Assembly (NCBI GenBank): GCA_903857865.1
Contig: CAIOGO010000022.1
Coordinates: 59,176 to 123,175, forward strand
Length of the DNA stretch: 64,000 nt
Reading direction: 5' to 3'
Source of the DNA: an uncultured bacterium
Lineage (GTDB): Bacteria > Bipolaricaulota > Bipolaricaulia > UBA7950 > UBA9294
The notes beneath the pieces were generated by a model that searched no databases, was not told the origin of the DNA, and saw only the letters and a list, made by a program, of their open reading frames with translations. Below, one piece after another: positions 2,368 to 28,578 of this stretch. Position 1 is the first letter of the stretch; each line of letters begins with the position of its first letter. The position numbers and the translations under genes are program-made.

Positions 2368-3294
2368 CTAGGTCAGCTTGGGACCGCGCAAGCTCTCGAG
2401 CTTGGCGAGGAACCGCCGCGCGTCTTCCTCGCGGATCTGACTGCGGTTGAACGCCAGACGCCGGCCGTCCGGGAGCTCGATTCTGAGTTCCCCGTCGGTG
2501 AACGTCGCGTCGATCTCGTCGAGCCGGTGCTCCACGCCGATGCCGATGCCTCCGAAGCGGCGGGCCGCGTCGGCCCACTTCGGGAGATCGCGGGCGAGCC
2601 GCTCCACCATCTTACGTTTGAGGAACGCCGCGGGGCCCTTCTCGTTGGCTCCGGCGTCGAGCTTTGCTCGGACGGCATCGAGCGCCTCCTCGACCGGCTT
2701 TGCGAACTCGAGCACCAGTCGCTGGTCGTTCGTCAGAATGACATCCAGGCTGTCGTCCGGGAGCGAGAGCACGGCGGCTTCGTCACGCCAGACCACTTCG
2801 TACAGGCGGCTGCGTCCGATACCCTTGATCTTCTTCTCCCCGAGGTCGCGGAAGGCGAAGCCCGAGCTCGCGGAGGAGCGGTCGCGTATCTCCGGCGCGA
2901 CGACGATCTGACACGCTTTGGCCAGATCGGCGAGGCGCTTCGCCAAGTTCACCGAATGTCCGAACAGGTCGCCGCCGGTTCGGATCGCCGGACCCCATGT
3001 CAGGCCGAACCCGGCGCACAGCGATTCCTCGGGGTGTCCCTCGTTGTACTCGGACAGCGCCCGCTGAGCATCAATGACGCTCAGCACCGCCGCGGTCGAG
3101 TCGTCGAACGACATCATGATGCCGTCGCCATACGTCTTGAGCAGTCGGCCGCCGTGCTCGTCGAGCTCAGCGCGCACAACGGACGCGAAACGCTCGGCGA
3201 CTCGCAACGCCTCGCGATCGCCGCGCTCGGCCGTATAGGAAGTGAAGCCTCTCAGGTCGCCGAATCCAATCGCCAGGGGCTGTTCGTCCGCCAC
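2368..3294 (-). CDS. class III adenylate/guanylate cyclase domain protein with uncharacterised C-terminal domain
   Basis: N-terminal FGDLRGFT…KTYGDGIMMSF cyclase catalytic motifs; C-terminal ~150 aa unassigned. Confidence 0.65.
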   Translation of the reverse strand: MADEQPLAIGFGDLRGFTSYTAERGDREALRVAERFASVVRAELDEHGGRLLKTYGDGIMMSFDDSTAAVLSVIDAQRALSEYNEGHPEESLCAGFGLTWGPAIRTGGDLFGHSVNLAKRLADLAKACQIVVAPEIRDRSSASSGFAFRDLGEKKIKGIGRSRLYEVVWRDEAAVLSLPDDSLDVILTNDQRLVLEFAKPVEEALDAVRAKLDAGANEKGPAAFLKRKMVERLARDLPKWADAARRFGGIGIGVEHRLDEIDATFTDGELRIELPDGRRLAFNRSQIREEDARRFLAKLESLRGPKLT

Positions 3295-3566: not shown

Positions 3567-6500
3567 CTATCGGCGGATGAACAGCGTGCCCTTCCCGGAG
3601 AAGCGGCTCGTCCCCGCCGAGGCCGAGATGACATAGATGTAGGCCCCATTGGCGACAAGATCGCCGCGCTCCGATCGGCCGTCCCAGATGGCGGAGAGCG
3701 CATCCACAGCTTCACCCGACCACACGAGGTGACCCTGCAGGTCGTACACGGCCACCGTGAGGAGGTCCGCCAGACCTTGCCCAGCGAAGGCAAAGGCGAT
3801 GTCGCCCTCGGACGGGTTCGGGGTGGCGTAGAACCGATCTACGCGCAACTCGCCGGCGACCACCTTGATGCTCGCCGAACTCGCGTCGGTCGGGTCGGTC
3901 GGATCGACGTAGGACGCGGTGATGGTCTCGCCGGGCGCAGCCTGAAGGTCGAGTCCTACGGTGATGAACGATCCGGGAGCTGCTCCGGCCAGAGGAGCGA
4001 GGTCGTAAGCGACACCGTTGATGGTTACGGCGTCGTTGATCGTCCCCGCGCCGGCGAGCGTCAGGTCGTCGACGCGAACGTAGACGAACTCGCCCTCGAC
4101 GTACGCGGCGACGGGATTCCCGGTCGCGTCGACGAACGTCGTGGTCGACCGCCCGACGGGCTCGGCCCCACCGATGGAGACCTTGATCGAGATCCACGCG
4201 ACGTCCGAGTGGTTCGTCGGATCCTGGTAGGCGGCGAGGATCGTGTCGCCCGGCAGGACACCGAGAGACGGAGCGCACGGGTACTGGCTCACGAGGTCAA
4301 TGCAGGTCACGCTCACAAACTCGCCCGTGTCCGTCCCCGTTTCGAACAGGTCGAACGGCGCCCATCGTCCGTTCCGCGGGTTGAGCACGTAGAGCTTCGC
4401 CCACGTTCCGTTCCCGACGATGTTTGTGTCGCCCAACAGGTCGTTCACCAGGTGGGCGTCAACGTCGAGGTAGCCGCAATCGGGAGCGTGGTTCGCCGCC
4501 AGGTCCATCGGCCCCATCGGGATGTTCTGATGCCCGTCCCAGAATCCGGCCACACGCTCGCGGCGCTGTTGGTCCTCGTTCTGGTCGGGATCGATCACCT
4601 GCACGAACACGCAGTCGCTGTTGACGTACCCCGAGGCGGGGTTTCCTGAGCGGTCGAGGAACCGCATGTTGATCTCGTCCCCGTCGTAGACCTGCGTGTC
4701 GGCGACTTCGAATACGGCAAACGAGACGTCGTTGGCGACGCGCGCCGACGCGATGGCCGGCGGGAACGACGTCGCGGTGTCCTGATCGCCCAGTCCGGCC
4801 AGCGCCTCTTCAGCGTAGACCACGTCGTTGTACCGCGCGTAGATCGAATCCTCGTTGAACGCTTCGAGGTCCCAGTTGTCGAGTTGCAGGGAGTAGCCGC
4901 CATCCTGTCCCGGATCGCCGATTCCGAGCGCGTCCCACACGGGCGAGAGCGACAGTCCGGAGTTGGAGAAGAAGACGGGCGAGTTGCTCGACAGCTCGTC
5001 GAGGATGAGCCACTCGGTGTCGTCGATCTCGTGCGGGTCGCAGACTTGAGCGACAACCTGTTCCGGGCAGCACGCCTCGACGTTGGCGTTCGCGTCCACG
5101 ACCTCGACGTACACCGGGTCGCGGCCGATCCAGAAGACGTCTTGGCTATTGCGCGCGTAGTCCGTGAAGTGAAGGGTGCTGTGGTTTCGCTCCCCGATGT
5201 AGGCCGTCGCGAGCTTGAAGTCGTCTTGATCGTTCGGGTCGATGTAGTAGGCGACAAGCACGTCGCGCACGTTGAGTTCCGTGAATCCCAGATCGTGGAG
5301 AATGCTGTTGATTCGGAACTCGAAGACGCCGGTGTTCGCCCCCGTCTCGGTGGCGTAGAACATGATGCGGGTCACGCCGCCCGTCGTCGCCGTGGCGAAC
5401 GACACCGGCATCTTGTCGGCTTCCGTCGGATAGTGGACGTAGTACGTCCCATCGGCGTTTGGCTGACGGCTTCCGTCATTGCGGAGGTTGACGTCGGCCG
5501 TGGTGAGGCCGCTGTCGTAGATGTTGCACCACAAGAGGGCCTGATCGGCCGGCGTCCCGATCAGGTCGACGACACCCCCCCAGCGGTTGATGGCCCAGAA
5601 GTCACTGGCGCTGGTCGGCTTGGCAGGGGAGATCACTGACCCAGCGGCCCAATTCCACGATCCTGGGTTCACGAGGATGAACACGGGCACCATCTCGGCT
5701 TTGCCCGGATGAAGATTCTCATCCGGGTCGGTGATCGTCACCGTCGCCGCCTCGTTTCCATCGGGATACACCTCGCGTGACCAGGCGATCTCCGCTTCCG
5801 TGTCGAAGATCTTGGCGCGCGCCAGAGCCACGTCGCCAGGGTCGTTCTGATCGACGTAGAGTCCGACGAGCGTGTCCATGTTCTCGAATCGCCCGAGCAT
5901 GTAGTCCTTCAAGCGTGCCAGGGAGCTGCCGTTCGGCAGGTACGCGTCGCCTCCAGGGATGAACGAGGCGCGCGCATCCACGAATTGGAGCACCGCGTTG
6001 TCGAGTTGCAGGGAAACCGTCTGCGTGGGGATCGTCAGCGCGCTCACCCAGACACGGTCATCGCCTTCGTCGCCCGGGTCCACGGCGGTGTCGGCATAGA
6101 GGTAGCCGCCCCACTGGAAGTCGGTCGGCTCGACGGAGCCGGGTCCGCGGCCGTCGACCGGCCCGACGATGTGAGCGTAGTCGCGCCCATCGTGGGAGTA
6201 GTCCACGCGCGTTCCGATCTGGAACGGCCGCGCGCTCACGAAGAGGCCCGTCGATCGATTGGTCTCCTCGAGGTAGTCGGCTCCAAGCCACCCTGCCGAC
6301 GCACCGGGCCAGTGGCCCTTGTGCGGCGAGTAGTCCACATCGCCGAATTCCGCTTCGCCCACGCCGTCTTCATCGATGTCCGCGCCGGACCGGTCGATGT
6401 AGCTCTTCCACACGATGTGCGCACCCGTCTTGGCGTCGATCACCTTGATGTCCGTCCACACCTTGTCGCGCACGTCGCAGTCGATGTCCTCATCCGGATC

Positions 6501-6668
6501 GCGGACGACAATCCAGATGTGCTCTCCCTCCTGAATCCTCGACACCCGGGTCTCCCCGTTTTTGTCGGCGGAGAAGTAGAGCTCCGCTTCCGTTCCTGCG
6601 GCAGTGGCCGCCCAAAGGGACGCGAGGAGAAGCGCGGCCACGGGAATGGCGCATCTTGTTCGTTTCAT
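3567..6668 (-). CDS. large secreted cell-surface protein (~1033 aa) with signal peptide and C-terminal T9SS-type/FlgD-Ig-like sorting domain
   Basis: Start MKRTRCAIPVAALLLASLWAATAAG (signal peptide) at 6668, in frame with track ORF 3567..6989; C-terminus …FYATPNPSEGDIAFAF…VAVYDLQGHLVWSGEAVD…WDGRSERGDLVANGAYIYVISASAGTSRFSGKGTLFIRR matches the Por/T9SS C-terminal domain pattern; ATGA overlap with upstream gene. Confidence 0.7.
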   Translation of the reverse strand: MKRTRCAIPVAALLLASLWAATAAGTEAELYFSADKNGETRVSRIQEGEHIWIVVRDPDEDIDCDVRDKVWTDIKVIDAKTGAHIVWKSYIDRSGADIDEDGVGEAEFGDVDYSPHKGHWPGASAGWLGADYLEETNRSTGLFVSARPFQIGTRVDYSHDGRDYAHIVGPVDGRGPGSVEPTDFQWGGYLYADTAVDPGDEGDDRVWVSALTIPTQTVSLQLDNAVLQFVDARASFIPGGDAYLPNGSSLARLKDYMLGRFENMDTLVGLYVDQNDPGDVALARAKIFDTEAEIAWSREVYPDGNEAATVTITDPDENLHPGKAEMVPVFILVNPGSWNWAAGSVISPAKPTSASDFWAINRWGGVVDLIGTPADQALLWCNIYDSGLTTADVNLRNDGSRQPNADGTYYVHYPTEADKMPVSFATATTGGVTRIMFYATETGANTGVFEFRINSILHDLGFTELNVRDVLVAYYIDPNDQDDFKLATAYIGERNHSTLHFTDYARNSQDVFWIGRDPVYVEVVDANANVEACCPEQVVAQVCDPHEIDDTEWLILDELSSNSPVFFSNSGLSLSPVWDALGIGDPGQDGGYSLQLDNWDLEAFNEDSIYARYNDVVYAEEALAGLGDQDTATSFPPAIASARVANDVSFAVFEVADTQVYDGDEINMRFLDRSGNPASGYVNSDCVFVQVIDPDQNEDQQRRERVAGFWDGHQNIPMGPMDLAANHAPDCGYLDVDAHLVNDLLGDTNIVGNGTWAKLYVLNPRNGRWAPFDLFETGTDTGEFVSVTCIDLVSQYPCAPSLGVLPGDTILAAYQDPTNHSDVAWISIKVSIGGAEPVGRSTTTFVDATGNPVAAYVEGEFVYVRVDDLTLAGAGTINDAVTINGVAYDLAPLAGAAPGSFITVGLDLQAAPGETITASYVDPTDPTDASSASIKVVAGELRVDRFYATPNPSEGDIAFAFAGQGLADLLTVAVYDLQGHLVWSGEAVDALSAIWDGRSERGDLVANGAYIYVISASAGTSRFSGKGTLFIRR

Positions 6669-7294
6669 TCGGTCCTTCCTTCCCTGGGTGTCCAAGCGAT
6701 GGCTCCCTCGGTCCCTGCGGCTCGCTGGGGCCGCAGGACGTTGCCTGGCGCGGAGGCCTGGAGTGCCGCGAACGCGCGTCTCCATGCCCCGATCGTGAAG
6801 GCCAGCCAGATGACGATGGGCGACGCCTCCCACAGCAGGCGAACCGCCAGTTGGGCGATCTCCCGCGTGCCTCCCGCGGTGAGTCCGGCGGCGCTGTACG
6901 ACAGCTCGACGGAGACGACCACGTAGAGGACGTGGAGGGCGAACAGCGCGGCGACACCGCCCGCCGCCAACGCCACGCGGCGCCCCCATCGGAGGTTGGG
7001 CGTCGCGAGGAACAGGGCGAGGAGCGGAACCACAGCGAAAAACGCGTATCGATCAAAGAACATGAACGGCGCGACGCGATCCTGACCGACGCGGCGGTAG
7101 GCCCAGACCGTGTCGCCCTGCGGGCTCACGACCGTCACATCGTCGCGCTCGACCCACCGGAATGCGGGCTGAGCGACGGCCGAGACCGCCGTGCCGTAAC
7201 GAGGGGCGACGAACGTCCAGACGGCGACAAGGACGGCGAGGGCGACGACGAAGACGAGCGCGAAGCGCCCCACGAGTCGGAGGGAAGCTCTCAT
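6665..7294 (-). CDS. small polytopic membrane protein (1 TM + ~55-aa loop + 3 TM), exosortase-associated
   Basis: Start MRASLRLVGRFALVFVVALAV at 7294 with AAGGAGG RBS; 4-bp ATGA overlaps at both ends (7291-7294 and 6665-6668). Confidence 0.55.
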   Translation of the reverse strand: MRASLRLVGRFALVFVVALAVLVAVWTFVAPRYGTAVSAVAQPAFRWVERDDVTVVSPQGDTVWAYRRVGQDRVAPFMFFDRYAFFAVVPLLALFLATPNLRWGRRVALAAGGVAALFALHVLYVVVSVELSYSAAGLTAGGTREIAQLAVRLLWEASPIVIWLAFTIGAWRRAFAALQASAPGNVLRPQRAAGTEGAIAWTPREGRTE

Positions 7295-7809
7295 GTGGCC
7301 CTCCTTGTCTGGGATCCTGCGCGTCCCGCCCACAGGAGCCACAACGAGACGGCGATCGCGATCACGAGCGATTGCCACACCAACTGGTGCACAAGCTCGA
7401 GCGCCGTTCGCCAGTACCTGCCGACGTAGTACAGCGAGGCGAGACGTACGACGTTGACAAGGAACAAGCCGACGAGGCCGACGCCGGTGCCAACGAGGCG
7501 CGCCCGCCACGATGTCGGGAACGCGACCACGGCGGCGAGGAAGAGGCCGGTGACGAAGAGCCCCGTGCACGCCGTGACAACCGAGATTCCGAACTCGTGT
7601 GACAGGATGTCCGTGCCCTGCGCAACGGTGTGGTTTCCGAGGACGTTGAGCACGGCGCTCGTCACGACCGCAAACGCGCGGCGAACAACGGCGGTCGCTG
7701 CGTCGTTCGACAAGACGAGAACGAGCGCTCCGAGCACGGCGCCGGCGCCGAGCGCCGAGGCGGCGGCGCGACGCCATGCGGGAACGTGTCGGTCCTCGCG
7801 CCGGCTCAC
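7291..7809 (-). CDS. minimal exosortase/archaeosortase-family protein (~172 aa), candidate IPTL-CTERM (XrtH-like) sorting enzyme
   Basis: Five TM helices; LGNHTVAQGTDILSHEFGISVVTACTGLFVTGLFLAAVVAF resembles the exosortase catalytic-Cys block (…V.eaCSG.rs…); downstream WRAR…LFLVNVVRLASLYYVG resembles the conserved Arg and N-x-x-R blocks; GTG start at 7809 gives a GTGA overlap with the upstream stop (the track ORF extends further, to 7971). Confidence 0.6.
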   Translation of the reverse strand: MSRREDRHVPAWRRAAASALGAGAVLGALVLVLSNDAATAVVRRAFAVVTSAVLNVLGNHTVAQGTDILSHEFGISVVTACTGLFVTGLFLAAVVAFPTSWRARLVGTGVGLVGLFLVNVVRLASLYYVGRYWRTALELVHQLVWQSLVIAIAVSLWLLWAGRAGSQTRRAT

Positions 7810-8879
7810 GCTCGGCCCCTCACAGCGTGCGCCCTTCGGCCCTGGAGGCGCCACGCGAACGCGATGACGAACGCAACGGAGAGCCCGATCATTCCCCACT
7901 CGGTCAGGCTTGGCGCGTCGATCGTGCCCGTGAGGGGAATCGGAAGCTCCGACTCCTGCACCGTGACGCACGTCGGGTCATCGTCCTCCGCTGTCGCCGG
8001 GTCGTCGGTGGGCTCGCTCGCGTCGACGGTTCCGTCGCGGTTGGAGTCCCAGCGGACGAAGCCCTGGTTGCAGAGCGCCGTTCCCGCTTCGACATCGTTC
8101 CCGATGCGCGCCTTGAACGTCAGCCGGACCGTGCCGCCGGCCGGGATCGAGCCGTCCCAGACGATCGAGTCGCCGGTTACGGCCGCAGTGCCGCGGTCCG
8201 CCTGGATGAAGCCCGTCGCCGACAGGCCGACGGGCAGCGTGTCGGTGAACTCGTGCTCCGGCCCGTCGGTCAGGTTGGCGCAGCCCTCGTTCACGATGAC
8301 GACCTCATAGCGAATGGTGTCGCCCGGGTTGGGGGTGCCGCCGTCCACGTCGACGGCCGTCTTGGTTGCCTCGACGTAGGGTGCGTTGGGGCGGACGAGG
8401 ACCTCGAACTCCTCTAGGTTGTTGTCCTCGTTCAGTTCCGCGACGGTCCCCCCGGAGTCGGCCCGTACGATGATGCGATGAGTTCCGGGAGGGACTCCGT
8501 CGGTGTCCCATGTGAACGTCAGTCTCACGAACTCGCAGCCGAGGAGCTTGTCGACGTGCCGCGTGGCAATCGGATGCGACGGATCGTCCCAGTAGACCGC
8601 GACATCGAACGGGCCTGCGTCGCCACAGCTCAGGTTGTCGATCGTTACGGTGATCGTCACTTTTCCGCCCTCGCAGACGTCGCCCGACGTCTCCTGGACG
8701 GAAGTTGCACCGCCGGAGAGGACTACGCCGGGGGCGGGGAACCAGAGGTCGGGGGACTTCACGCACGGCTCCTCAGCCGACGCACTGCCTGCCGCGAAGA
8801 GCAGGACGGAGAGCGCAAGCAGCGAACCCACCCCAGACATCCTTCCCCAACGTTCGATTCGCTTGTTCAATTGCACCAC
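7806..8879 (-). CDS. secreted repeat-domain (CARDB/DUF11-like) surface protein with IPTL-CTERM-type (IPTLxxWG) C-terminal sorting signal
   Basis: N-terminal signal peptide (SLLALSVLLFAAGSASA); C-terminus …IDAPSLTEWGMIGLSVAFVIAFAWRLQGRRAHAVRGRA = motif + TM helix + basic cluster. Confidence 0.7.
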   Translation of the reverse strand: MVQLNKRIERWGRMSGVGSLLALSVLLFAAGSASAEEPCVKSPDLWFPAPGVVLSGGATSVQETSGDVCEGGKVTITVTIDNLSCGDAGPFDVAVYWDDPSHPIATRHVDKLLGCEFVRLTFTWDTDGVPPGTHRIIVRADSGGTVAELNEDNNLEEFEVLVRPNAPYVEATKTAVDVDGGTPNPGDTIRYEVVIVNEGCANLTDGPEHEFTDTLPVGLSATGFIQADRGTAAVTGDSIVWDGSIPAGGTVRLTFKARIGNDVEAGTALCNQGFVRWDSNRDGTVDASEPTDDPATAEDDDPTCVTVQESELPIPLTGTIDAPSLTEWGMIGLSVAFVIAFAWRLQGRRAHAVRGRA

Positions 8880-9398
8880 TCCCTTCTCGCGCGCGAGTCT
8901 CGCCTCGTACGGCAGACAGCCGGTGCTGAGACTCCCAGCAAGGCTGACCAGAGGCTAGCTGAGTCCCTCTGTGATGGGCATGACGCTCGACGGCCGGGGG
9001 TGTGATCTTCGTCACAGTGGGAATCGGAACTGATGGGGGGCTGGGAGGTGACCGGTGTCCTGCCTATCCCGCTAGGGCAGCGGGGCACGCGCTCCCTCCA
9101 TGTCCCTCATGCCCCCCCAGTCCTCGCGCTAAGTTCCTAGATGCAAGCGGCAAGAAGCTCTCGAACAACGTGAAGTTGCCGATGGTCTTGGAGTTCTTGT
9201 GGAGCGACTTGCCTGCGGCGAAGCCCAGTTCCTCGCAGGCTGTGCACAACGCAAGCAGGGCGGCGCCAGGGCCAGAACTGCCTGCACAGAGCTGGAAACA
9301 CAGACATAACGCAGACAGGAACGCGATGACCTGCGACTCTGCGGTTTGTCTGGTCTTGCATCGTTGAGGTACTGTTGCCTTGGTATTGGGGGCAAGAC

Positions 9399-9746
9399 AT
9401 GAAATACAGATCGTCGGTGGTGGCGTTCGCCAAGGCGGTAATGTGTGACGCGGCCCAATATCGCGGGGACGAGATTCGCCAGGTCGTGCGGGGAATTGAC
9501 ATGGATTCGGCTTCGTTCAAGAGCGTGCTGGAGCAGGCGCTATCAGCGCACGACGCGGCATTTGTCAAAGCCGCCAAGTCGATCATCCCAGAGGGTGATT
9601 GGCAGGAGATCATCGACTACGTCTGCAAGTACCGTGACACATACGGGTTCGCTTCTCCGGTTCCCGGCACGAACAAGAACGCCCTCCTCTTGTTCCCGTG
9701 GGTGGCCGCAGTCGCGATATGCGCACTAGACGACATCGGGAGGTAG
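9399..9746 (+). CDS. hypothetical protein (lower-GC islet)
   Basis: ORF MKYRSSVVAFAKAVMCDAAQ…; local GC clearly below the window average; no recognisable domain. Confidence 0.3.
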   Translation: MKYRSSVVAFAKAVMCDAAQYRGDEIRQVVRGIDMDSASFKSVLEQALSAHDAAFVKAAKSIIPEGDWQEIIDYVCKYRDTYGFASPVPGTNKNALLLFPWVAAVAICALDDIGR

Positions 9747-9927
9747 AGAATGGGACAGGACGAGGACAAGAAGACAGTCGAAGGACAGCCTCTGGGTACG
9801 GGGCATGCCCACCAGGGAACGCGGCAAGAGAAGATCTTGACTGGCTCGGAAGAGGTCAGGAAGCTAGCAGAGGACTTCGAGTACAGGCCCCCAAGAAACC
9901 TCAGGCCAATCCTCCCAGAAGAGAACG

Positions 9928-10560
9928 CTACTCAGGCTTCCGCCCATCAAGAAACTCAACAAGAGCCACCTCCGCAGAAGGAGTGATGAGAATGCCGGGG
10001 CCATCGTGGGCGCTCTTCACCATGCTGCCTGCGGCGTAGATCGTCACGGGCTCGCCGCCGATCGGACCACGCACAAGATAGATGCTCGTCTGGGTTCCCG
10101 AAGCCGAATAGTACTTCGGGACGCCCATGATTCGGCGGCCGTCCTTCAGGTGAACAAGAGCCCATGCCCCCGCCTCTTCCGCGTGCTGGAACGCATCGAC
10201 CCACGTGTTCACGGTACCCTTCTTGGACCATCTTGACCTGAATAGCAGGGCCTGCCACAGCTTCCGCAACCAAGCCGCTCCCGTGAGAGCGCCAAGCAGG
10301 AGCGCCAGCGCCACGGCCACCGGAATAGTCATGGGGTTGAATGACGTCTTGATCGGGAACGGAGTCATTCCAAGCGGCTGGAGCGCAAGCAGTGCGCAGA
10401 AGATAACTGCATCATAGACGGCCGCCGAGACTAGTAGGCGCTTCACATCTCGTTCTCCCGTCTCCAATAGGGCATCACGGATGAGAACGGCGATTAGGCC
10501 GGGCAGCAAGGCCAGTCCCGCGAGTATGGCCGCAGTTCCAGACAGCTGTAGGTCCCACAA
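9928..10560 (-). CDS. hypothetical membrane protein (3-4 N-terminal TM helices + ~110-aa soluble C-terminal domain)
   Basis: 210-aa ORF in the lower-GC islet; no recognisable family. Confidence 0.45.
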   Translation of the reverse strand: MWDLQLSGTAAILAGLALLPGLIAVLIRDALLETGERDVKRLLVSAAVYDAVIFCALLALQPLGMTPFPIKTSFNPMTIPVAVALALLLGALTGAAWLRKLWQALLFRSRWSKKGTVNTWVDAFQHAEEAGAWALVHLKDGRRIMGVPKYYSASGTQTSIYLVRGPIGGEPVTIYAAGSMVKSAHDGPGILITPSAEVALVEFLDGRKPE

Positions 10561-27881: not shown

Positions 27882-28322
27882 ATGGCACCGAAAAAGGCGA
27901 CAAGAGGGACAGGATCAACGTTCCTCTTCCTGTGCCGGCACAACGCGGTGCGCTTGCAGATGGCCGAGGTGCTACTTCGCACCCGTTTCCCGGGTCGGTA
28001 CGAGCCGGCAAGCGCGGGGATCGCGCCTTCGGGCATCCATCCGCTGGCGATTGCCGTTCTCGAGGAGATCGGCGTCTCGACTCTTGGTCTACGGCCGAAG
28101 CACGTCGAGGAGTACTTGGGTCGAAGCTTCGATGTGGTGGCAACCGTCTGCGGCCAGGACGAGCCTTCGTGCCCATTCTTCCCTGGAGGCCGTCAGATCC
28201 ATCGTGTGTTCAGCGATCCCAGTTCGGCGTTGGGCACGGACGAAGAACGGCTCGCTGCGTTTCGCAACACCCGCAATGAGATCGATTCCTGGATCGGCGA
28301 TGCGTTCGGAGCGCGCTGCTAG
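27882..28322 (+). CDS. arsenate reductase / low-molecular-weight phosphotyrosine phosphatase family protein
   Basis: CX5R P-loop LFLCRHNAVRLQMAE; ~146 aa. Confidence 0.7.
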   Translation: MAPKKATRGTGSTFLFLCRHNAVRLQMAEVLLRTRFPGRYEPASAGIAPSGIHPLAIAVLEEIGVSTLGLRPKHVEEYLGRSFDVVATVCGQDEPSCPFFPGGRQIHRVFSDPSSALGTDEERLAAFRNTRNEIDSWIGDAFGARC

Positions 28323-28350
28323 GCGCGGCTGCGGCGTGTCGCGACCTTGC

Positions 28351-28578
28351 TTAGGTCGCAGGCGGGGTCACAGCCCCGCGCGCGTTCCAGTTGCGCGCGG
28401 CGTCGGCAATCGCTTCCGGGCCGAGGACGTGCTGATACGTCGACCGCATCTTGGCCGGGCACTTCGTGCAGGAGACGTAGCCGTTGTAGTCGATCTCGTC
28501 AGCCTGTGTGATCGTGGCGGAGCGACACCAACCGCGTGCCTCCCCACCGCAGAACGGACACGGCTTGAGCTTGAACAT
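28351..28578 (-). CDS. Lar-family restriction-alleviation-like small protein
   Basis: MFKLKPCPFCGGEA… matches the LKPCPFCGG hallmark of the Lar family; start choice (28578 vs 28617) uncertain. Confidence 0.45.
   Translation of the reverse strand: MFKLKPCPFCGGEARGWCRSATITQADEIDYNGYVSCTKCPAKMRSTYQHVLGPEAIADAARNWNARGAVTPPAT

What the first reader, a model, noticed from the sequence alone, without database searches (positions are those of the whole stretch)
7291..8879. IPTL-CTERM-type substrate translationally coupled to a minimal (~172 aa) exosortase-family enzyme
The 357-aa secreted repeat protein ends in …APSLTEWGMIGLSVAFVIAFAWRLQGRR, i.e. an IPTLxxWG-like motif, a TM helix and a basic cluster, which is the architecture of exosortase-type C-terminal sorting signals. 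Its stop overlaps (GTGA) the start of a five-TM protein that carries exosortase/archaeosortase catalytic-core hallmarks: a Cys in …ISVVTACTGLF…, then W-R-A-R and N-V-V-R blocks. At under 180 aa this is far shorter than XrtA or ArtA (~280-500 aa). From memory, database models pair IPTLxxWG-CTERM with 'exosortase H', but I know of no experimental characterisation. A substrate-then-enzyme arrangement this compact is a clean candidate for defining the minimal sorting module.
Basis: partly seen in the sequence, partly recalled or inferred. Interest (0 to 1): 0.8.

Follow-up and report, generated by a model that had tools for sequence, protein, structure and literature searches.

The report
Divergent exosortase H sorting operon, Bipolaricaulota
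This is a real but fairly ordinary protein-sorting cassette: a small membrane cysteine protease of the exosortase H type sits next to the one surface protein it probably trims and anchors, within a four-gene operon found in all sampled members of the phylum Bipolaricaulota.

Summary
On the minus strand, a 357-aa secreted CARDB/DUF11 protein (7806-8879) ends in APSLTEWG, a TM helix and a basic cluster. Its stop overlaps (GTGA) the start of a 172-aa exosortase-family protein (7291-7809).

The enzyme's best curated match is exosortase H (79.9 bits, cutoff 86), and it passes the general exosortase/archaeosortase signature. Ortholog tails pass the IPTL-CTERM model.

Three points need correcting:
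- **Length:** 172 aa is normal. The XrtH, XrtX, XrtF, XrtM, ArtB and ArtE models are 150-174 positions long, and the 185 database homologs are mostly 165-190 aa.
- **Conserved core:** it is Cys81/Arg122/His141. The "W-R-A-R" block is variable.
- **Module size:** it is four genes joined by 4-nt overlaps. The third is a distant exosortase-H-associated membrane protein homolog (6665-7294). The fourth is a 1,033-aa acidic all-beta secreted protein (3567-6668).

The order is conserved in 32/32 Bipolaricaulota genome loci and 68/68 informative metagenome contigs, always with a single tail-bearing substrate.

Verdict: a divergent, phylum-specific member of the known XrtH/IPTL-CTERM system. Cleavage and anchoring are inferred, not shown. 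A speculative link to the unidentified Bipolaricaulota S-layer is the most interesting reading.

The parts
7806..8879 (-). Substrate gene: secreted CARDB + DUF11 protein with an IPTL-CTERM-type tail. 357 aa from the GTG at 8879; alternative starts are TTG 8870 and ATG 8840.
   Evidence: ORF and translation. Pfam CARDB 46.2 bits (aa 66-155) and DUF11 32.9 bits (aa 177-265). Orthologs at 39-94% identity directly upstream of the enzyme in every locus not cut by a contig end.
7809..7928 (-). Tripartite sorting signal (aa 318-357): extended motif GTIDAPSLTEWG, TM helix MIGLSVAFVIAFAW, and basic cluster RLQGRR...RGRA.
   Evidence: TIGR04174 gives 17.5 bits here (cutoff 20.5); orthologs L019 (35.6) and L022 (32.5) pass. 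Family consensus PLSGTIDAP[ST]L[ST]EWGMI..AF.W..RRR.
7291..7809 (-). 172-aa XrtH-like exosortase. The GTG start overlaps the substrate stop (GTGA).
   Evidence: TIGR04177 XrtH 79.9 bits (cutoff 86). TIGR04178 signature 48.3 (cutoff 23, passes). PF09721 27.9 (cutoff 25.7, passes). 185 homologs, mostly 165-190 aa. AF2 model pLDDT 84.4.
7567..7569 (-). Codon of Cys81, the predicted nucleophile, at the outer end of the second hydrophobic TM segment (aa 76-97).
   Evidence: Invariant in 99/99 Bipolaricaulota and 28/29 Chloroflexota copies. Codon tgc read. Position in the model.
7444..7446 (-). Codon of Arg122 (N-V-V-R block), a predicted catalytic Arg.
   Evidence: Invariant in 128/128 copies. It lies 41 residues after the Cys, as in ArtA Cys173/Arg214.
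7387..7389 (-). Codon of His141, the predicted third triad residue.
   Evidence: Invariant in 128/128 copies. Haft 2023 gives the family triad as Cys/Arg/His.
6665..7294 (-). 209-aa membrane protein, a distant homolog of the exosortase H-associated membrane protein. Its ATG overlaps the enzyme stop (ATGA).
   Evidence: Translation. NF041730 gives 16.6 bits (cutoff 35). phmmer hit P0264 (E = 1.7e-10) itself passes NF041730 at 35.3 bits. Present in 32/32 genome loci. A weakly similar ORF follows the enzyme in at least 16 Chloroflexota loci.
3567..6668 (-). 1,033-aa acidic secreted all-beta protein with a FlgD-Ig/CHU_C-like C-terminal domain. Its ATG overlaps the stop of the third gene (ATGA).
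   Evidence: Junction. 50-76% identity in 31/32 genome loci. 393 homologs; the full-length ones among the 120 listed are about 1,000-1,050 aa. AF2 gives a multi-beta-sandwich, pLDDT 69. Only generic macroglobulin/Ig-like fold matches. pI 4.15.

Best explanation
The locus is a dedicated, one-substrate sorting system of the exosortase H (XrtH)/IPTL-CTERM type. It is embedded in a four-gene, translationally coupled operon conserved in every Bipolaricaulota locus examined.

**Proposed mechanism**
1. The CARDB/DUF11 protein is exported through Sec using its N-terminal signal peptide. It stays tethered in the cytoplasmic membrane by its C-terminal helix, with the Arg cluster inside (inferred from sequence).
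2. The 172-aa enzyme binds the extended motif GTIDAP[ST]L[ST]EWG, which abuts the outer end of that helix. Cys81, Arg122 and His141 are predicted to sit at the outer membrane face (positions inferred from the model and the positive-inside rule).
3. Cys81 attacks a peptide bond in or next to the motif. This releases the helix plus Arg stub and forms an acyl-enzyme. The acyl-enzyme is resolved onto an unknown acceptor (lipid, glycan or envelope polymer), or onto water (inferred by analogy with ArtA/PGF-CTERM and sortase; not shown).
4. The co-translated 209-aa XrtH-associated-type membrane protein is an obligate partner. It may hold the substrate or present the acceptor (inferred from invariant adjacency only).
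5. The 1,033-aa acidic beta-sandwich protein made from the same message is a co-functioning surface component (inferred from synteny only).

**What is shown:** gene structure, family assignment, residue conservation, synteny, and the one-to-one pairing in all held DNA.
For: **Family assignment**
- XrtH is the top NCBIfam hit for the window protein (79.9 bits). It is matched by all 36 aligned relatives and is top in 9 of the 10 relatives scored individually (XrtX edges it by 0.6 bit in P0112). TIGR04178 and PF09721 pass their cutoffs.
- Dehalococcoidia relatives reached with the same profile pass the XrtH cutoff (L035 at 103.3 bits, L034 at 88.1). They have classical tails nearby, VPSMTQWG and IPSVSQWG.

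**Catalytic residues**
- C81, N119, R122 and H141 are invariant across 128 copies from two phyla.
- This matches the Cys/Arg/His triad stated for the family and the 41-residue Cys-to-Arg spacing of ArtA.

**Tail**
- It has the tripartite architecture. Orthologs pass TIGR04174, and NCBI names one an IPTL-CTERM protein.

**Coupling and synteny**
- There are three 4-nt overlaps in the window, and an independent gene caller reproduces them.
- The four-gene order holds in 32/32 genome loci.
- The enzyme is adjacent in 68/68 metagenome contigs with enough downstream sequence. The same substrate family is present in 58/58 with enough upstream sequence.
- All 100 IPTL-like tails in 865 kb of held DNA belong to the cassette substrate.

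**Third gene**
- A transitive link to NF041730 runs through P0264.

**Topology**
-.
Against: - The window's own three proteins all score below the curated cutoffs: XrtH 79.9 against 86, IPTL-CTERM 17.5 against 20.5, XrtH_assoc 16.6 against 35. Strict membership is therefore not met for this copy.
- No cleavage, acceptor or localisation data exist for any XrtH system that I could find.
- There is no solved structure for the fold.
- The enzyme-substrate interaction was not modelled.
- Helix 36-56 has uncertain topology, so placing the triad at the outer face rests on the positive-inside rule.
- The genome-wide substrate count could not be measured. The held DNA is biased towards the cassette itself.
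Confidence: 0.8

Rival explanations
1. The tail is only a permanent C-terminal membrane anchor and is never cleaved. The small exosortase-like protein acts on a different target, for example the 1,033-aa protein or a non-protein substrate.
For: No cleavage data exist. The fourth gene is the best-conserved member of the cassette. The window tail falls below the IPTL-CTERM cutoff.
Against: A plain anchor would not need a 15-residue, nearly invariant motif directly before the helix. The motif co-occurs with the enzyme gene in 68/68 informative contigs. The 1,033-aa protein has no tripartite tail and ends in a beta-sandwich domain. Ortholog tails pass the curated sorting-signal model.
Confidence: 0.1
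2. The enzyme is a hydrolytic release protease rather than a transpeptidase. It cuts the tether so that the CARDB/DUF11 protein is freed to assemble non-covalently with the 1,033-aa protein on the outer sheath.
For: Transpeptidation has not been demonstrated even for ArtA or rhombosortase; only the endopeptidase role is supported. The cultured Bipolaricaulota strain is reported to have an outer toga-like layer, separate from the cytoplasmic membrane where cleavage would occur. No acceptor-synthesis genes lie in the operon.
Against: The Cys/Arg/His triad mirrors that of sortase transpeptidases. ArtA substrates do end up lipid-modified. This differs from the best explanation only in the last chemical step, and nothing here discriminates between the two.
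Confidence: 0.25
3. The 172-aa ORF is a truncated, mis-called or decaying fragment of a longer XrtA/ArtA-like exosortase.
For: A longer in-frame ORF exists (226 aa from the GTG at 7971), overlapping the substrate gene. XrtA-class enzymes are described as having eight or more TM helices.
Against: The extra 54 residues add nothing to any HMM match; the score falls slightly, from 79.9 to 78.9. The 185 homologs are mostly 165-190 aa, and in about half the orthologous loci the start sits at the 4-nt overlap. The catalytic residues are invariant. Curated short-exosortase models are the same length. The AF2 model is compact and confident.
Confidence: 0.02

Closest known systems
Exosortase H system (XrtH TIGR04177 + IPTL-CTERM TIGR04174 + XrtH-associated membrane protein NF041730)
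   Same: It is the best-scoring family for the enzyme. The protein has the same length class (model of 158 positions) and the invariant Cys/Arg/His core. The tail has the xP[ST]LxEWG motif, then a TM helix and an Arg cluster. A homologous small membrane protein is encoded directly downstream.
   Different: All three window proteins fall just below the curated cutoffs. The motif is extended and starts with Ala instead of Ile (GTIDAP[ST]L[ST]EWG). All 100 tails found belong to one substrate family, always adjacent to the enzyme. A fourth, phylum-specific 1,033-aa gene is fused into the operon.
Archaeosortase A / PGF-CTERM (Haloferax volcanii ArtA and its S-layer glycoprotein)
   Same: It belongs to the same enzyme superfamily. 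The Cys-to-Arg spacing is the same (C173/R214 against C81/R122). The signal is tripartite. The substrate is a major surface protein. ArtA is the only family member with mutagenesis and processing data.
   Different: It recognises PGF rather than IPTL-like motifs. It is archaeal and serves several substrates. Its HMM match here is negligible: only 3 of 36 relatives match TIGR04125.
Methylomirabilis lanthanidiphila S-layer protein mela_00855 (IPTL-CTERM)
   Same: It is a small (31 kDa) secreted protein with an N-terminal signal peptide and a C-terminal IPTL-CTERM domain. Proteomics covered all of it except the C-terminal tail.
   Different: It is reported to have no homology to other proteins, so it is not a CARDB/DUF11 relative. 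Its sortase context was not examined in that paper.
One-target tandem sorting systems such as JDVT-CTERM/MrtJ
   Same: There is one target protein per genome, encoded in tandem with its processing enzyme, which implies co-ordinated expression.
   Different: That enzyme family is unrelated (CPBP/Rce1-type glutamic protease), and its motif has an invariant Cys.

Membership tests
Exosortase/archaeosortase superfamily (TIGR04178 signature, PF09721) | Score above the curated cutoff on the signature-region model and on the Pfam model | tested here: met
   TIGR04178 scores 48.3 bits (cutoff 23). PF09721 scores 27.9 bits (cutoff 25.7)..
Exosortase/archaeosortase superfamily | Nearly invariant Cys, Arg and His (suspected catalytic triad) | tested here: met
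   C81, R122 and H141 are invariant in 99/99 Bipolaricaulota copies and in 28-29 of 29 Chloroflexota copies. The triad definition comes from Haft 2023.
Exosortase/archaeosortase superfamily | Cys-dependent endoproteolytic removal of the C-terminal signal | not testable with these tools
   This needs expression, mutagenesis or proteomics.
Exosortase H (TIGR04177) | Whole-protein score at or above the curated cutoff of 86 bits | tested here: not met
   The window protein scores 79.9 bits. Five other Bipolaricaulota members score 70.6-80.2. Dehalococcoidia relatives score 74-103, with L034 and L035 passing. This is a near miss, and XrtH is the best-scoring family.
Exosortase H (TIGR04177) | Pairing with IPTL-CTERM target proteins | tested here: met
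   An IPTL-type tail is encoded directly upstream in all complete loci. Ortholog tails pass TIGR04174.
IPTL-CTERM sorting domain (TIGR04174) | Score at or above the curated cutoff of 20.5 bits | tested here: inconclusive
   The window copy scores 17.5 (fails). Orthologs score 35.6 (L019) and 32.5 (L022), which pass; 20.4 (L027), which is borderline; and 16.6 (L032), which fails; L011 gave no TIGR04174 hit at E <= 0.1. NCBI names a Bipolaricaulota fragment on a 5,474-bp contig (the length of L014's contig) an IPTL-CTERM protein.
IPTL-CTERM sorting domain (TIGR04174) | Tripartite architecture at the extreme C-terminus (motif, TM helix, basic cluster) on a protein with an N-terminal signal peptide | tested here: met
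   Read directly from the sequence: APSLTEWG, then a 14-residue hydrophobic stretch, then RLQGRR..RGRA. The N-terminus is MVQLNKRIERWGRMSGVGSLLALSVLLFAAGSASA.
Exosortase H-associated membrane protein (NF041730) | Score at or above the curated cutoff of 35 bits | tested here: not met
   The window protein scores 16.6 bits. Of the five orthologs scanned, two hit weakly (19.4 and 12.9 bits) and three gave no hit at E <= 0.1.
Exosortase H-associated membrane protein (NF041730) | Homology to bona fide members, and a gene position next to the XrtH gene | tested here: met
   phmmer hit P0264 (E = 1.7e-10, full length) passes NF041730 at 35.3 bits. Five other remote hits match only that model, below threshold. 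The gene is always directly downstream of the enzyme.
Exosortase X (NF046081) / archaeosortase B (TIGR04144) | Score at or above the curated cutoffs (170 and 150 bits) | tested here: not met
   74.4 and 51.9 bits.
S-layer protein with its anchoring system | The protein forms the outermost paracrystalline lattice | not testable with these tools
   The support is circumstantial only. There is no specific fold match to solved S-layer proteins.

The most novel reading that the evidence does not exclude
The four-gene cassette encodes the still-unidentified surface lattice of Bipolaricaulota together with its own anchoring machinery. Cryo-EM of the first cultured strain, J31, shows a hexagonal S-layer coating the toga-like sheath. 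In this reading, the ~30-kDa IPTL-anchored CARDB/DUF11 protein and/or the 1,033-aa acidic beta-sandwich protein build that lattice. The XrtH-like enzyme and its partner attach it. This would be a bacterial counterpart of ArtA with the Haloferax S-layer glycoprotein.
Probability: 0.25. Interest if true: 0.6.

Novelty: new member of a known kind. Interest (0 to 1): 0.3.

Why it matters
No exosortase H system has been characterised experimentally, and no member of the whole exosortase/archaeosortase fold has a solved structure in the PDB copy searched.

This Bipolaricaulota version has practical advantages for a first biochemical or structural study of the short exosortases:
- The enzyme is small.
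- There is one obligatory partner protein.
- There is one adjacent substrate with a long, nearly invariant recognition motif.

A cultured representative of the phylum now exists, with a visible S-layer whose protein the retrieved passages of its description do not name. The operon therefore gives a concrete, testable candidate for that envelope. The find does not change what is known about the family: curated models for all three components have existed for years.

Tried and rejected
**Searches that led nowhere**
1. A tail-only profile search of the 5.8-billion-protein database returned four short fragments and not the known orthologs. It was useless for counting substrate architectures. I replaced it with a back-translated DNA pattern scan of metagenomes.
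3. The Chloroflexota ORFs downstream of XrtH gave no NF041730 hit. The link to XrtH_assoc had to be made through a remote-homolog search instead.
4. Haft et al. 2012, the founding paper, is not held. I took the triad definition from Haft 2023.
5. The promoter/terminator scan, Rfam and the composition profile of the upstream region were uninformative.

**Ideas rejected**
6. A thioester-protein reading of the fourth gene (fold hits to complement C3/alpha-2-macroglobulin plus a "CCPEQ" string). The Gln is not conserved, and the matches are generic beta-sandwich chains with TM about 0.13.
7. A mis-called longer exosortase.
8. R163 as the equivalent of ArtA Arg253. It is variable (R/K/T/L) and predicted to be cytoplasmic. 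I could not align ArtA directly.
Full report
**1. What is in the sequence**

All features lie on the minus strand. ORF 7806..8879 encodes a 357-aa protein. It has:
- a signal-peptide-like N-terminus (MVQLNKRIERWGRMSGVGSLLALSVLLFAAGSASA|EEP);
- a CARDB domain (aa 66-155, 46.2 bits);
- a DUF11 domain (aa 177-265, 32.9 bits);
- the C-terminus ...PLTGTIDAPSLTEWG-MIGLSVAFVIAFAW-RLQGRRAHAVRGRA.

The TGA of this gene overlaps a GTG (GTGA) that opens a 172-aa ORF, 7291..7809. The stop of that ORF overlaps the ATG (ATGA) of a 209-aa membrane protein, 6665..7294. The stop of the third gene in turn overlaps the ATG (ATGA) of a 1,033-aa protein, 3567..6668.

JGI's gene caller made the same 172, 209 and 1,033-aa calls with the same overlaps, on a metagenome contig (Ga0236338_1000120) whose copy of the fourth protein is identical to the window's. 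It started the first gene at an internal ATG, giving 344 aa.

**2. Family assignment of the enzyme**

Against NCBIfam, the 172-aa protein's best hit is exosortase H (TIGR04177) at 79.9 bits, with a curated cutoff of 86. Next come exosortase X (74.4 against 170) and archaeosortase B (51.9 against 150). It passes the general exosortase/archaeosortase signature TIGR04178 (48.3 against 23) and Pfam PF09721 (27.9 against 25.7).

The longer 226-aa reading from an upstream GTG adds nothing to any match.

They are XrtH 158, XrtX 168, XrtF 174, XrtM 150, ArtB 156 and ArtE 153. An exosortase of about 170 aa is therefore a long-curated size class, not an outlier.

A database search found 185 relatives, most of them 165-190 aa. 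The named ones come from Candidatus Bipolaricaulota MAGs and are annotated only as "archaeosortase/exosortase family protein".

All 36 aligned relatives match XrtH, which also has the best E-value of any family across the set. Bipolaricaulota members score 70-80 bits. The Dehalococcoidia relatives reached with the same profile straddle the cutoff: L035 scores 103.3, L034 scores 88.1 and L062 scores 85.7.

The window protein is therefore a divergent branch of XrtH that the curated cutoff narrowly excludes.

**3. Catalytic residues and topology**

I compared 99 Bipolaricaulota and 29 Chloroflexota copies.
- **Invariant:** Cys81 (one Ser exception), Asn119, Arg122 and His141. Trp145, Gln146, Trp157 and Trp160 are essentially invariant too.
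- **Variable:** R102 is replaced by L, T or I. R104 is mostly Lys.
- **Variable:** R163.

Haft (2023) states that the suspected triad of the family is Cys, Arg and His. ArtA mutagenesis identified Cys173, Arg214 and Arg253 as critical. The Cys-to-Arg spacing is 41 residues in both ArtA and this protein.

AlphaFold2, run with the family alignment, gives a confident model (pLDDT 84.4, pTM 0.75). It has five helices and a short beta-hairpin (aa 62-76) just before Cys81.

Hydropathy supports four strong TM segments at about 15-33, 76-97, 105-127 and 144-162. Helix 36-56 is amphipathic and contains an Arg-Arg pair.

The N-terminus, the WRAR loop and the C-terminus carry the positive charge. By the positive-inside rule (an inference), Cys81, Arg122 and His141 then sit at the outer membrane face. 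That is where the substrate's motif meets its own TM helix.

No solved structure resembles the model.

**4. The tail and the pairing**

The window tail scores 17.5 bits on IPTL-CTERM (cutoff 20.5). Positional orthologs score 35.6 and 32.5, which pass, and 20.4, which is borderline. NCBI already labels a Bipolaricaulota fragment, on a contig of the same length as L014's, "IPTL-CTERM sorting domain-containing protein".

The family consensus is P-L-[STC]-G-T-I-D-A-P-[ST]-L-[ST]-E-W-G-[MA]-I, then a helix with a conserved AF.W, then RRR. This is an unusually long conserved motif, with Ala where the classical signal has Ile.

In 29 of 32 Bipolaricaulota genome loci, the gene directly upstream of the enzyme carries this tail. 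The other three loci are cut by contig ends.

Gene junctions are 4-nt overlaps in about half the loci. In the rest they are gaps of 1-39 nt, in most of which an RBS-like sequence is visible just after the stop.

To ask whether the tail ever occurs elsewhere, I scanned the metagenome collection with a back-translated pattern for GTIDAP[ST]L[ST]EWG. It matched 79 contigs.
- All 68 with at least 500 nt downstream have the enzyme gene adjacent.
- All 58 with at least 700 nt upstream encode the same CARDB/DUF11 family.

A looser tripartite detector, run over 865 kb of Bipolaricaulota-type DNA, found 100 tails. Every one belongs to the cassette's own substrate. The 64-kb window has exactly one.

Two caveats apply. 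The DNA pattern includes residues that may be specific to this substrate. The held DNA is centred on the cassette. A true genome-wide count therefore remains undone.

One-target systems with tandem target and enzyme genes are a recognised pattern. A single substrate does not argue against function.

**5. The third gene**

The 209-aa protein has an N-terminal TM anchor and at least two further hydrophobic segments. It hits NF041730 (exosortase H-associated membrane protein) only weakly, at 16.6 bits against a cutoff of 35. Of the five orthologs scanned, two hit that model weakly (19.4 and 12.9 bits) and three not at all.

A profile of the Bipolaricaulota orthologs hits the ORF immediately downstream of the enzyme in at least 16 Chloroflexota loci, and almost nothing else. 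Those ORFs do not match NF041730.

An exhaustive phmmer search of 1.84 billion cluster representatives gave 39 hits. One of them, P0264, matches at E = 1.7e-10 over the full length and itself passes NF041730 at 35.3 bits. Five others match only that model, below threshold.

The third gene is therefore a distant member of the XrtH-associated family. The "minimal module" has at least three parts.

**6. The fourth gene**

The 1,033-aa protein is the best-conserved product of the cassette. It shows 50-76% identity in 31 of 32 genome loci.

It has 393 database relatives. The full-length ones among the 120 listed are about 1,000-1,050 aa, and every hit that carries an organism tag is a Bipolaricaulota MAG (one is labelled Thermotogota). 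They are called hypothetical or named only for a C-terminal FlgD-Ig/CHU_C-like domain.

AF2 predicts a chain of beta-sandwich domains (pLDDT 69). Fold matches are generic macroglobulin/Ig-like arrays with TM about 0.13. A thioester reading was excluded.

Both mature secreted proteins are strongly acidic, with pI about 4.1.

**7. Mechanism: shown versus inferred**

Shown here:
- gene structure and coupling;
- family relationships;
- residue invariance;
- strict synteny;
- one-to-one pairing in all available DNA.

Inferred:
- Sec export, with retention by the C-terminal helix;
- recognition of the extended motif at the outer face;
- attack by Cys81 assisted by Arg122 and His141;
- release of the helix plus Arg stub;
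- transfer of the mature protein to an unknown acceptor, or hydrolytic release;
- the 209-aa protein acting as an obligatory partner.

Even for ArtA, one-step transpeptidation is unproven.

**8. Biological role: speculative**

Several observations together make a surface-lattice role plausible.
- The S-layer protein of Methylomirabilis lanthanidiphila (31 kDa) carries an IPTL-CTERM domain. Its C-terminal tail was the only part not seen by MS.
- ArtA processes the Haloferax S-layer glycoprotein.
- The first cultured Bipolaricaulota strain, J31 (64.5% G+C; the window is 65.0%), has a toga-like outer sheath coated by a hexagonal S-layer. The retrieved passages of its description name no gene for that protein.
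- The cassette is conserved in every Bipolaricaulota locus examined, and both secreted products are acidic.

This role is plausible but untested. I give it about 25%.

**9. Verdict**

The identification as an XrtH/IPTL-CTERM-type pair is essentially right. The claims of unusual minimality, of a W-R-A-R catalytic block and of a two-gene module are not.

This is a divergent, phylum-specific member of a known and curated, though experimentally untouched, system. Interest is modest. Its value is as a compact, well-defined test case and as a candidate for the Bipolaricaulota envelope.

Noticed in passing
window 5031-5072 (-), aa 533-546 of the 1,033-aa protein: The motif C-C-P-E....C-D-P-H has two adjacent invariant cysteines (32/32), an invariant Pro, Asp-Pro-His, and a third nearly invariant Cys. 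It is not a thioester CxEQ motif, because the Gln varies. It may be a vicinal disulfide or a metal site. Unexplained.
   Followed up: partly
P0271, P0275, P0282: In other lineages, the XrtH-associated-type membrane domain is fused to a C-terminal TPR region. That region resembles PrsT, the TPR protein of the XrtA/PEP-CTERM system. This hints at a shared accessory logic between XrtH and XrtA systems.
   Followed up: partly
window 3642-3730 (-) and 28313-28404 (+): ARAGORN calls a tRNA-Ala (89 nt, inside the coding region of the 1,033-aa gene) and a tRNA-Ser. Rfam reports no RNA family at gathering threshold anywhere in the window. The first call is probably spurious. The second is unconfirmed.
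   Followed up: no
L029 4260-5888 and L025 3820-5829: These are variant cassettes. L029 has a longer substrate ORF (542 codons, stop to stop) with a tail lacking the GTID prefix (..CAAPTLSEWG), and no ortholog of the 1,033-aa gene. L025 has a 669-codon substrate ORF. Substrate size and the fourth gene are therefore not absolutely fixed.
   Followed up: no
window 2368-3294 (-): A 308-aa protein with a weak adenylate/guanylate cyclase domain lies 270 nt downstream of the operon on the same strand. The same neighbour is present on the JGI contig L143. I did not check whether it is linked to the cassette in other genomes.
   Followed up: no
window 8880-9930: About 1 kb upstream of the substrate gene has lower G+C (56-60% against 65%) and only short ORFs. 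JGI calls proteins of 78 and 115 aa on the opposite strand. There was no promoter consensus hit. This is presumably the operon's regulatory region.
   Followed up: partly
L034, L035, L054 (Dehalococcoidia): Enzymes scoring 74-103 bits on the XrtH model (L034 and L035 pass the 86-bit cutoff, L054 at 74.4 does not) sit beside, or within a few kb of, ORFs carrying classical VPSMTQWG or IPSVSQWG tails. The tail-bearing ORFs in L034 and L054 are large (865 and 572 codons) with Pro-rich linkers; the one in L035 is only 74 codons. The system type is thus shared between Chloroflexota and Bipolaricaulota, with different cargo.
   Followed up: partly
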